Assembly (NCBI RefSeq): GCF_006345805.1
Contig: NC_043006.1
Coordinates: forward strand, 44,764,001-44,828,000
Length of the DNA stretch: 64,000 nt
From: Octopus sinensis
Lineage: Eukaryota
Direction: 5' to 3'
Within the stretch, counting starts at the first letter, position 1. Each line of letters begins with the position of its first letter. Below are positions 54,973 to 57,257 of the stretch, piece after piece. Position numbers: made by a program.

Positions 54973-55029
<57 letters not shown>

Positions 55030-55031
55030 CA

Positions 55032-55110
<79 letters not shown>

Positions 55111-55446
55111 ATTTGCAGCTAGTTGACTCTCCTTTTACTGAAATTTGCTGAAATCTGAACACTCCCTCTGCTGACTTGCAAAGCTTTGTCTCCCATACAA
55201 CTGCGTTTCTTCCTTCCATGGTTAAATAAAAGTCTATTTCTTGTGTACCAGAACTAGTGGGAAGATGAGTGGGAAAAAAATCTGAGGGATAAGCGCGTAC
55301 GCACACGCACACCTAGTTAGGGAGAACTAAAATGGAATTCAATCTGCTACCGGCATGCAGACCTTGCATTTCCGGTTTTAATACTACTGTATGAAAAATA
55401 AATTTTGGATTCTGGGCTCTATACTCTTGCCTTCTTTCCTAAACTC

Positions 55447-55494
<48 letters not shown>

Positions 55495-55519
55495 ACACTG
55501 ACACACACTGACACACACT

Positions 55520-55586
<67 letters not shown>

Positions 55587-55940
55587 ATTTGCAGCTAGTT
55601 GACTCTCCTTTTACTGAAATTTGCTGAAATCTGAACACTCCCTCTGCTGACTTGCAAAGCTTTGTCTCCCATACAACTGCGTTTCTTCCTTCCATGGTTA
55701 AATAAAAGTCTATTTCTTGTGTACCAGAACTAGTGGGAAGATGAGTGGGAAAAAAATCTGAGGGATAAGCGCGTACGCACACGCACACCTAGTTAGGGAG
55801 AACAGTAGACAAAGAGAACTAAAATGGAATTCAATCTGCTACCGGCATGCAGACCTTGCATTTCCGGTTTTAATACTACTGTATGAAAAATAAATTTTGA
55901 TTCTGGGCTCTATACTCTTGCCTTCTTTCCTAAACTCTAA

Positions 55941-56012
<72 letters not shown>

Positions 56013-56042
56013 ACACTGACACACACTGACAACACTGACACA

Positions 56043-56080
<38 letters not shown>

Positions 56081-56448
56081 ATTTGCAGCTAGTTGACTCT
56101 CCTTTTACTGAAATTTGCTGAAATCTGAACACTCCCTCTGCTGATTTGCAAAGCTTTGTCTCCCATACAACTGCGTTTCTTCCTTCCATGGTTAAATAAA
56201 AGTCTATTTCTTGTGTACCAGAACTAGTGGGAAGATGAGTGGGAAAAAAATCTGAGGGATAAGCGCGTACGCACACGCACACCTAGTGAGGGAGAACTAA
56301 AGAGAACTAAAATTGAATTCAATCTGCTACCGGCATGCAGACCTTGCATTTCCGGTTTTAATACTACTGTATGAAAAATAAATTTTGATTCTGGGCTCTA
56401 TACTCTTGCCTTCTTTCCTAAACTCTAACACACACACACACACATACA

Positions 56449-56483
<35 letters not shown>

Positions 56484-56534
56484 ACACACACACACACTCA
56501 CACACACTCACACACACTCACACACACTCATACA

Positions 56535-56575
<41 letters not shown>

Positions 56576-56626
56576 ATACACTCACACACACACACACTCA
56601 CACACACACACACACACACTCATACA

Positions 56627-56679
<53 letters not shown>

Positions 56680-57257
56680 CAGCCTTCTAGTTAAATTTGA
56701 AAACTTTCATAAAAAGAAAAGAAAGCACAATATCCCATCCCAAAATGAAAGTATCAAATAAAAAGATATAAAAAATATAAAGTAAATTATGGTTGGAAGT
56801 AGCTGCAGTCATCTTCTACCACAGCTTCAAGACGGCTCCGGAACCCGGCGCACCTACCTACCCACCTACCTACATACCTACTTACCTACCTACCTACTTC
56901 GAACGCCTTGATCTTAACCACCAGTTCGGCCTTGATGTTGCAGGTAGAGCGGTGAAAATCTTTGTCGACTGCACCACACACATAGTAATCCGTGAGAAGC
57001 TTTGACTGAGGAAATATATAATAACGTCGAAATACCACGATTTCAAAGTTACTTTACATCAACGAATCACGAGTATTATTAACAACCATCGCCTAGAGGA
57101 GATAGGTGTATTCTGATAATGAAAAACAATACCGATCAGCATAATCACGTTCGAATTTGCTGAAAACATAGAGAGTGAACAGATACACTATTCTTTGAGT
57201 TCTCCATATTCTGCATCTACCTCATCGCGCGTGTGCACACATAAACATATATAAGTA

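What the first reader, a model, noticed from the sequence alone, without database searches (positions are those of the whole stretch)
54975..56696. Frame-asymmetric candidate exon triplicated in tandem between (CA)n tracts
Seen: three copies of a ~340-bp unit, each with an intact acceptor, 115-nt exon and donor, separated by (CA)n of different lengths. The copies differ by real-looking indels next to GGGAGAAC, and the only exonic difference I found is synonymous (Lys). The exon is phase 2 to 0, so including two copies would shift the frame. Inference: (CA)n-mediated unequal crossover is building an exon cassette that needs mutually exclusive splicing or skipping, possibly a nascent alternative-exon array or a copy-number polymorphism.
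Basis: partly seen in the sequence, partly recalled or inferred. Interest (0 to 1): 0.7.

Follow-up and report, generated by a model that had tools for sequence, protein, structure and literature searches.

The report
Non-coding tandem triplication between CA repeats
A 340-base stretch of repeat-rich DNA, probably from a cephalopod, has been copied three times head to tail between CA microsatellites, and its exon-like look is most likely chance, so it is an ordinary young tandem repeat.

Summary
The described sequence is there. Three tandem copies of a 340/355/349-bp unit (55109-55448, 55585-55939, 56079-56427) alternate with four interrupted (CA)n tracts. On the minus strand each copy carries an identical pyrimidine-rich acceptor, a 115-nt open stretch and a GTAAAA donor. 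The only exonic difference is G/A at 56145, which is Lys-synonymous in one frame.

The two inner tracts share the same interruption block, so the repeated period is unit plus following tract. Copies a and b have no substitutions between them, and c differs by three. This fits out-of-register exchange between flanking (CA)n tracts, followed by a second exchange between periods.

The exon part has no support:
- No credible protein relative exists among 1.84 billion representatives; both hits are repeat-inflated.
- No longer protein shares words with either open frame.
- Pfam finds no family and no host-gene domain in the window, only LINE fragments.
- Substitution rate is the same inside and outside the "exon".
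- Exon-like patterns occur in 2-37% of comparable windows.

Transcription and copy number in reads could not be tested. Verdict: ordinary, low interest.

The parts
54976..55108 (.). Outer left (CA)n tract T1: A(CA)26 ACACT (CA)20 GAGA (CA)15
   Evidence: TRF period 2, 67 copies; tract make-up
55109..55448 (.). Unit copy a, 340 bp, no insertion after GGGAGAAC; extra G at 55407/55408
55449..55584 (.). Inner (CA)n tract T2, with the TA...(CTGA(CA)3)x3 interruption block shared with T3
55585..55939 (.). Unit copy b, 355 bp, 16-bp insertion at 55804-55819; no substitution relative to copy a
55940..56078 (.). Inner (CA)n tract T3, paralogous to T2 (same interruption block)
56079..56427 (.). Unit copy c, 349 bp, 10-bp local duplication at 56298-56307; three substitutions relative to a and b (56145, 56288, 56314)
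56428..56676 (.). Outer right (CA)n tract T4, 249 bp, with (CT(CA)4)x3 and CTCATACACT interruptions
55139..55253 (-). Exon-like stretch in copy a (115 nt, TAG acceptor, GTAAAA donor, two of three frames open); most likely not a real exon
55615..55729 (-). Exon-like stretch in copy b, identical to that of copy a
56109..56223 (-). Exon-like stretch in copy c, with one G-to-A difference (plus coordinate 56145)

Best explanation
This is a young, non-coding tandem repeat of three periods of about 480 bp. Each period is a 340-355-bp segment with no other copy in the window plus an interrupted (CA)n tract of about 135 bp. It sits in transposon- and microsatellite-rich DNA, probably of a cephalopod mollusc.

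Inferred history. A single segment lay between two (CA)n tracts. Out-of-register pairing of those tracts, by unequal crossing-over or replication slippage (the data cannot tell which), duplicated the segment together with the adjoining part of a tract. A second out-of-register exchange between the resulting periods then gave the third copy. Small slippage indels at the GAGAAC direct repeats followed.

The acceptor-like, open-frame, donor-like pattern on the minus strand is most likely a chance (at most cryptic) pattern that was simply copied along with the unit.

Shown: the anatomy, the paralogy of the inner tracts, the order of divergence and the absence of coding evidence. Inferred: the exchange mechanism and the non-function.
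For: Anatomy and copy boundaries inside (CA)n tracts.

The period is unit plus following tract. T2 and T3 share the TA and CTGA(CA)3 interruption block. T4 carries the similar CT(CA)4 x3 block. T1 does not.

Copies a and b (followed by T2 and T3) have 0 substitutions between them, while c differs from both by 3. The a/b split is therefore the latest.

Three distinct indel versions (0, +16, +10 bp) cannot all be alleles of one single-copy diploid locus.

No coding evidence:
- phmmer against 1,835,955,588 representatives gave 2 hits. Both are internally repetitive proteins whose best single stretches score only 22.7 and 26.2 bits. My arithmetic: 63 aa x 2.36e11 residues x 2^-26.2 is about 1e5 such matches expected by chance.
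- The word-index search among longer proteins gave none scoring E <= 10 of 6 candidates for frame 2 and no candidate for frame 1.
- Pfam and PDB gave nothing.
- Of 372 scanned ORFs, the only credible families are RVT_1 (2 ORFs) and Exo_endo_phos_2 (1 ORF), all from LINE elements.
- Substitution density is equal in the 'exon' and the rest.
- Exon-like patterns number 176 in the window.

Context:
- TRF arrays cover 16.2% of the window.
- There are 14 AC/GT-type dinucleotide arrays.
- Other tandem arrays have periods of 102, 118, 184, 210 and 415 bp.
- Dispersed repeats lie at 54361-54606 and 57334-57709, and a LINE at 50.5-53.2 kb.

No Rfam family reaches its gathering score (0 of 9 weak matches). 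There is no tRNA and no unusual fold (z -0.03 and +0.95).
Against: The splice-like signals are better than average. Under criteria matched to them (at least 14 of 17 pyrimidines, YAG, GTAA, at least 100 nt open), only 12 of 599 other 340-bp windows hold such a pattern. Only 6 of 599 do when two open frames are also required, at 13 of 17 pyrimidines.

All three indel events fall outside the 115 nt, although this has P = 0.29 by chance.

A 38-residue lineage-specific exon could escape every protein search used. Pfam on ORFs of at least 55 aa misses short exons, so the window may still lie in an intron of a gene.

No reads, transcripts, annotation or eukaryotic nucleotide collection could be consulted.

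The copy history is not fully tree-like. Copies b and c share part of the insertion that a lacks, although a and b are otherwise identical. This needs a secondary deletion in a or a gene conversion.
Confidence: 0.72

Rival explanations
1. One reading: the 115-nt stretch is a real phase-2-to-0 coding exon of a minus-strand gene. (CA)n-mediated unequal exchange is building a three-exon cassette. Its copies must be spliced mutually exclusively, or the extra inclusions are removed by nonsense-mediated decay.
For: Acceptor, open frame and donor are identical and intact in all three copies, and the one exonic change is synonymous in frame 2. The signals are in the best 2% of comparable windows under matched criteria. 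The implied introns of 379 and 361 nt are workable. A length not divisible by three is a recognised route to exclusivity (passages of PMC5740500, and PMC6071210).
Against: No protein in two very large libraries contains the peptide in either open frame. There is no Pfam or PDB relative. No other host-gene signal appears anywhere in the 64 kb. The frame is open far past both splice sites. There is no excess constraint in the 'exon'. The copies are so young (0-0.9% diverged) that intact signals and one synonymous change prove nothing. The best repeat-inflated alignment even runs across the proposed acceptor into the pyrimidine tract.
Confidence: 0.07
2. Assembly artefact: the true locus has fewer copies. 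The assembler stuttered in a microsatellite-rich stretch, or laid haplotypes side by side.
For: Microsatellite-bounded repeats are hard to assemble. Some differences are of the kind sequencing errors make, such as 1-bp indels (G/GG at 55407/55408) and single missing bases inside tracts T3 and T4. The window has an assembly gap elsewhere (16607-16706).
Against: Three different versions of the GGGAGAAC region (0, +16, +10 bp) and three substitutions private to copy c are not error-like. They exceed the two alleles of a single-copy diploid locus, so at least two copies must sit on one haplotype if one individual was sequenced. There is no N within or beside the array.
Confidence: 0.08
3. The unit is part of a mobile or satellite-like element of this genome, for example an element that inserted into a (CA)n tract or that carries microsatellite ends. 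The array would then be one of many such loci rather than a locus-specific duplication.
For: The same microsatellite-unit-microsatellite layout is seen 0.7 kb away. There a dispersed repeat (57334-57709, matching eight other places in the window) lies between (TATC)n and (ATCT)n tracts. The window is dense in transposons and tandem arrays.
Against: No copy of the unit exists outside the array in 64 kb, whereas the neighbouring repeat families have five to nine copies. By inspection, I saw no terminal inverted repeat, poly(A) end or convincing polymerase III box. There is no tRNA-like head. The exhaustive protein search found no translated copies.
Confidence: 0.13

Closest known systems
Minisatellite or tandem-repeat birth between non-contiguous direct repeats (models of Taylor and Breden 2000 and of Haber and Louis 1998, as summarised in passages of PMC3389668)
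   Same: A stretch lying between two direct repeats is duplicated by slippage or unequal crossing-over. Each junction between copies holds one copy of the flanking repeat. Further copies then arise by exchange between the periods.
   Different: The flanking repeats here are microsatellite tracts of about 130-250 bp, not 5-10-bp repeats. The period (about 480 bp) is long for a minisatellite. The original papers were not read, only the summary passages.
Microsatellite-bounded segmental duplications of the sea urchin Sp185/333 gene cluster (PMC3091723; abstract seen)
   Same: Tandemly duplicated segments have edges bounded by microsatellites, which the authors propose promote instability and duplication.
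   Different: Those segments are 4.5 kb and carry expressed immune genes, and their edges carry different microsatellites. Here the segment is 0.34 kb, has no detectable gene, and the same (CA)n lies on both sides.
Tandemly duplicated mutually exclusive exon clusters (PMC5740500 and PMC6071210; passages seen)
   Same: Neighbouring copies have equal length, the same frame, GT-AG ends and high similarity. The length is not a multiple of three, so joint inclusion would shift the frame.
   Different: There is no surrounding gene, no protein-level relative and no transcript evidence. The likeness of the copies is explained by their youth alone.
Non-conserved cryptic exons kept silent by proteins that bind dinucleotide repeats: TDP-43 on UG, hnRNP L on CA (PMC5959245; abstract seen)
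   Same: A splice-site-bounded, non-conserved stretch lies next to long dinucleotide repeats. On a minus-strand transcript the tracts would read (UG)n, starting 30 nt after the donor.
   Different: That work concerns mammals. Whether this locus is transcribed at all, and whether the invertebrate orthologue acts the same way, is unknown.

Membership tests
Tandemly duplicated mutually exclusive exon cluster | Neighbouring candidate exons of similar length, same reading frame and similar sequence, with GT-AG ends | tested here: met
   Three 115-nt stretches, 114-115 of 115 nt identical, with identical acceptor and donor contexts. This is trivially met because the whole unit is 95-100% identical.
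Tandemly duplicated mutually exclusive exon cluster | Internal exons of a protein-coding gene (flanking exons, protein-level identity) | tested here: not met
   No protein contains either translation. There is no Pfam family. Among 372 of 431 ORFs of at least 55 aa across the window, only LINE domains are credible. Short exons and exons outside the window could be missed.
Tandemly duplicated mutually exclusive exon cluster | Splice-junction reads from each copy to outside exons, and none between copies unless frame-shifting | not testable with these tools
   No transcript or read data were available.
Tandemly duplicated mutually exclusive exon cluster | A mechanism of exclusivity (frame shift with decay, steric hindrance, or competing RNA structures) | tested here: inconclusive
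   115 nt is not a multiple of 3. The introns of 361 and 379 nt are too long for steric hindrance. The unit's fold is no more stable than shuffles (z -0.03 and +0.95). No docking-site search was possible without a gene.
Tandem repeat born between flanking direct repeats (slippage or unequal crossing-over) | Duplicated segment bounded on both sides by the same direct repeat, with one repeat copy at each internal junction | tested here: met
   Four AC arrays bound and separate the three copies. The flanks beyond them hold no unit-like sequence.
Tandem repeat born between flanking direct repeats (slippage or unequal crossing-over) | Internal junctions are paralogous to each other (later copies made by exchange between whole periods) | tested here: met
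   T2 and T3 share the TA and CTGA sub-repeat block. Copies a and b have 0 substitutions between them.
Tandem repeat born between flanking direct repeats (slippage or unequal crossing-over) | Copy number varies between individuals | not testable with these tools
   No population or read data were available.
Dispersed mobile element (SINE, MITE or LINE fragment) | Further copies elsewhere; terminal hallmarks (inverted repeats, poly(A), polymerase III boxes, target duplications) | tested here: inconclusive
   There are 0 copies outside the array in this window, no tRNA-like part and no Rfam match at gathering score. No hallmarks were seen by eye. The rest of the genome could not be searched.
Cryptic exon guarded by dinucleotide-repeat-binding repressors | Non-conserved splice-site-bounded stretch adjacent to UG or CA repeats within a transcribed intron, included when the repressor is lost | not testable with these tools
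   Only the sequence layout is met: GT repeats on the minus strand begin 30 nt after the donor. Transcription and repressor dependence are unknown.

The most novel reading that the evidence does not exclude
The 115-nt stretch is a real, lineage-specific exon of a long minus-strand gene whose other exons lie outside the window or are too short to detect. The locus would then be a snapshot of a mutually exclusive exon array at birth. It would have been made by microsatellite-mediated unequal exchange so recently that the copies are still 99-100% identical. The long (UG)n tracts in the new introns would be placed to control how many copies are included.
Probability: 0.05. Interest if true: 0.6.

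Novelty: new member of a known kind. Interest (0 to 1): 0.12.

Why it matters
As it stands it matters little. It is a clean, datable example of a microsatellite-flanked segment growing into a three-copy tandem repeat. The interruption patterns of the tracts record the order of events. It would probably make a usable copy-number marker. It is also a caution for sequence-only scans. In AT-rich, stop-poor, repeat-rich DNA, an acceptor-like site, an open frame and a donor-like site co-occur often (176 times in this 64-kb window under loose criteria). Recent duplication makes such a pattern look conserved. Only if transcripts showed the stretch to be spliced would it become an interesting case of exon-array birth.

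Tried and rejected
- **Exhaustive protein search.** The 63-aa minus-strand translation covering the 'exon' gave two hits with E = 1.5e-10 and 7.8e-09. I rejected both. They are internally repetitive proteins (8 and 7 matched stretches), and their single stretches score 22.7 and 26.2 bits. One of them also draws spurious Pfam families with no passing stretch.
- **Word-index searches among longer proteins.** Nothing for frame 2 or frame 1.
- **Protein atlas.** The nearest clusters are small bacterial hypothetical proteins with no common family. This is uninformative.
- **PDB sequence search.** Only E > 1.
- **Pfam on the unit's ORFs.** Nothing.
- **Rfam.** 9 matches at E <= 1, none reaching gathering score. 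All fall on low-complexity TA or GT tracts, under mir-297, mir-1277, mir-3149 and SCARNA7 models.
- **tRNA scan.** 0 genes.
- **RNA folds of the unit on both strands.** No more stable than shuffles.
- **Search for a degenerate fourth copy in the flanks.** None.
- **Comparison with other tandem arrays.** I checked whether the 415-bp and 210-bp arrays in the window are also microsatellite-bounded. They are not. The junctions printed for the 415-bp array share only a few bases.
- **Not run, as irrelevant.** The phage, plasmid and E. coli nucleotide collections and the bacterial/archaeal genome-contig scan do not apply to a eukaryotic window.
- **Not done.** Every query was a contiguous genomic translation of one copy.

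Full report
**Observation**

The region reads as described. TRF finds four AC arrays at 54976-55108, 55449-55584, 55940-56078 and 56428-56676. Between them lie three copies of one unit:
- a: 55109-55448, 340 bp
- b: 55585-55939, 355 bp
- c: 56079-56427, 349 bp

Start-to-start spacing is 476 and 494 bp (family D20). The three-way alignment has 364 columns and 97% mean column identity.

A blastn of copy b against the whole window gave 31 hits. Three were the full-length copies. The other 28 were 16 nt or shorter with E >= 0.77. The unit therefore has no other copy in the 64 kb. The sequences just outside the outer tracts are not unit-like: local scores were 17-24 against a shuffle mean of about 20.

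The differences between copies are few:
- Three substitutions, all private to copy c (56145, 56288, 56314).
- An indel cluster after GGGAGAAC: none in a, 16 bp in b, 10 bp in c.
- A 1-bp G indel in a.

**The exon-like pattern**

It is on the minus strand, at 55139-55253, 55615-55729 and 56109-56223. Each stretch is 115 nt. Each is preceded by a tract with 14 of 17 pyrimidines ending in TAG and followed by GTAAAAGG. The contexts are identical in all copies.

Two of the three frames are open. In frame 2 the one difference is AAG/AAA (Lys). In frame 1 it is Val/Ile. Two corrections apply: the strand is minus, and the variant copy is the third on the plus strand.

**Is the exon-likeness more than chance?**

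I counted patterns of the same kind over both strands of the window.

| Criteria | Patterns in window | 340-bp non-microsatellite windows outside the array with at least one |
|---|---|---|
| Loose: YAG after at least 12 of 17 pyrimidines, GTRA donor, 60-250 nt, at least one open frame | 176 | 219 of 599 (37%) |
| Matched after the fact: at least 14 of 17 pyrimidines, GTAA, at least 100 nt | 10 | 12 of 599 (2%) |
| Two open frames also required, at 13 of 17 pyrimidines | 6 | 6 of 599 (1%) |

An earlier count that dropped patterns overlapping microsatellites gave 166. The signals are thus better than average. They are not remarkable for a pattern that was looked for on both strands after the repeat had drawn attention.

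The frame is also open far beyond both proposed splice sites. The stop-to-stop ORFs are 120, 134 and 147 aa and run on into the GT repeat as Val-Cys repeats.

**Coding evidence**

I searched one copy's contiguous genomic translation.

- *Exhaustive search.* The HMMER search of the 63-aa translation against 1,835,955,588 representatives returned two proteins with E <= 0.001.
  - Both are internally repetitive: a 1044-aa protein of eight near-identical repeats, and an astacin-type protease with seven C-terminal repeats.
  - The query matches each repeat weakly. The best single stretches score 22.7 and 26.2 bits.
  - For a 63-aa query and 2.36e11 library residues, a 26-bit stretch is expected about 1e5 times by chance (my arithmetic). 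The summed E-values come from counting one weak match seven or eight times.
  - One alignment also runs upstream across the proposed acceptor.
  - I take both as false.
- *Word-index searches among longer proteins.* None of 6 candidates scored E <= 10 for frame 2. There was no candidate at all for frame 1.
- *Other libraries.* Pfam, the PDB and the protein atlas gave nothing usable.
- *Substitution pattern.* There is 1 substitution in 115 'exonic' nt against 2 in 225 other nt (Fisher P = 1). All three indel events fall outside the stretch, with P = 0.29 by chance.
- *Age.* With copies 0-0.9% diverged, intact signals and one synonymous change say nothing about selection.

**Surroundings**

Of 431 stop-to-stop ORFs of at least 55 aa, I dropped 59 as low-complexity. 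ORFs crossing the N run were also excluded. I scanned the other 372 against Pfam.

- The credible families are RVT_1 on two ORFs (36066-37367 plus strand, 50544-52127 minus strand) and Exo_endo_phos_2 on 52144-52959 minus strand. These are LINE elements.
- One further match above its cut-off (C_tripleX, 24.9 against 22.9 bits, no passing stretch) lies on a translated tetranucleotide repeat, and I disregard it.
- Four matches were below their cut-offs: PrgI, Orf78, Pex24p and PEN-2.
- No host-gene domain was found, so nothing places the array inside a recognisable gene. Short exons would escape this test.

The LINE reverse transcriptase has 3095 relatives at E <= 1e-20 among 7998 scored candidates. 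The best named one comes from the octopod Argonauta hians (59% identity over the full length). Another named one comes from a crab (46%). The window is thus probably from a cephalopod mollusc, but this rests on a transposon.

The window is very repeat-rich:
- 73 non-overlapping TRF arrays cover 16.2% of it.
- 14 are AC/GT-type dinucleotide arrays.
- Further tandem arrays have periods of 102, 118, 184, 210 and 415 bp.
- Dispersed repeats lie at 54361-54606 and 57334-57709 on either side of the array.

No Rfam family reaches its gathering score (9 weak matches, all on simple repeats). There is no tRNA and no unusually stable fold.

**How it arose**

The tracts carry a record.

| Tract | Make-up |
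|---|---|
| T1 | A(CA)26 ACACT (CA)20 GAGA (CA)15 |
| T2 | (CA)20 TA (CA)3 [CTGA(CA)3]x3 (CA)31 |
| T3 | The same TA and CTGA block between other CA runs |
| T4 | A similar block of three CT(CA)4 sub-repeats, one base different per sub-repeat, followed by further interruptions |

The tract that follows each unit copy is therefore homologous to the others. The repeated period is unit plus following tract, and the exchange points lie in the pure CA run that precedes a unit. Copies a and b, with T2 and T3, are the closest pair (0 substitutions). Copy c with T4 is the outlier (3 substitutions).

The simplest history has two steps. First, out-of-register pairing of the two flanking (CA)n tracts duplicated the unit. 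Second, an out-of-register exchange between the two periods made the third copy. Crossing-over and replication slippage cannot be told apart from the sequence.

The indel cluster fits local slippage between the GAGAAC direct repeats. Copies b and c share part of an insertion that a lacks, so a later deletion in a, or a conversion, must be assumed. This is the one untidy point.

**Artefact?**

Three different versions of the indel region exceed the two alleles possible at a single-copy diploid locus. At least two copies should therefore be real on one haplotype, if one individual was sequenced. The exact number needs spanning reads.

**Comparison with what is known**

- *Mechanism.* It matches the published models of tandem-repeat birth between non-contiguous direct repeats (summary passages in PMC3389668; I did not read the original papers). 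It also matches the microsatellite-bounded duplications proposed for the sea urchin Sp185/333 cluster (abstract of PMC3091723).
- *Exon reading.* It corresponds to tandem exon duplication giving mutually exclusive exons. Published criteria are similar length, same frame, similar sequence and junction reads (passages of PMC5740500, and PMC6071210). The first three are met trivially. Membership in a gene was tested and not met. Transcripts could not be tested.
- *If transcribed on the minus strand.* The layout, a non-conserved splice-site-bounded stretch beside long UG repeats, looks more like the cryptic exons that dinucleotide-repeat-binding proteins keep silent in mammals (abstract of PMC5959245) than like a working cassette.

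**Left unchecked**

- Copy number in reads.
- Transcription.
- The assembly's annotation.
- Copies of the unit elsewhere in its genome.
- The orthologous locus in relatives.

I consulted no supplementary files, and none bears on the claims.

**Verdict**

The repeat is real and the exchange mechanism is well supported. The exon interpretation is unsupported. This is an ordinary young tandem repeat in repeat-rich DNA. Interest 0.12.

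Noticed in passing
window 50544-53159 (minus strand) and 36066-37367 (plus strand): A LINE-type retrotransposon with endonuclease (52144-52959, N-terminal part continuing to about 53159) and reverse transcriptase (50544-52127) ORFs lies 2 kb from the array. A second reverse-transcriptase fragment lies in inverted orientation, with arms 77% complementary over 1118 nt. The best named relative of the 50544-52127 ORF is from Argonauta hians (59% identity).
   Followed up: partly
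window 53174-53614 (minus strand): A 147-aa ORF just upstream of the LINE endonuclease has a CCCH-like cysteine/histidine pattern and a weak sub-threshold Pfam Torus match (18.5 against 29 bits). It is possibly the element's first ORF.
   Followed up: no
window 32707-33210 (plus strand) and 33029-33860: The ORF is a remnant of a Tc1/mariner-type transposase (PDB Sleeping Beauty transposase, E 5.8e-06; no Pfam match at E <= 0.001). A 415-bp x 2 tandem duplication starts inside it. Its junctions share only a few bases, with no microsatellite.
   Followed up: partly
window 57258-57822: A dispersed repeat of about 376 bp (57334-57709, matching eight other places in the window, including an inverted pair at 40516-40828 and 42219-42597) sits exactly between a (TATC)19 and an (ATCT)26 tract. 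This is the same microsatellite-unit-microsatellite layout as the array's unit, as if inserted into a microsatellite.
   Followed up: partly
window 30454-32029: A G-rich minisatellite of 59/118-bp period (14 copies of 118 bp) shows extreme strand asymmetry (GC skew 0.62 in 30-32 kb). It gives ORFs of 391-551 aa on the minus strand with no Pfam family.
   Followed up: no
window 18721-19086, 21116-21932, 49079-49443; single copies near 5458, 6706, 17167, 38080-38529: A 184-bp repeat family occurs both as short tandem arrays (2 to 4.4 copies) and as dispersed, partly inverted copies. Its consensus holds a GAGTTCAAATTCCGCC stretch that, from memory, resembles a tRNA T-arm or polymerase III B box, so it may be a SINE-derived satellite. 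ARAGORN calls no tRNA.
   Followed up: no
window 16607-16706: A run of 100 N (assembly gap or masked stretch). It was left untouched.
   Followed up: no
window 43918-44337, 35277-35481, 59775-59949: Further short tandem arrays with periods of 210 bp (x2), 102 bp (x2) and 48 bp (x3.6). Tandem duplication of stretches of tens to hundreds of bases is common in this window.
   Followed up: no
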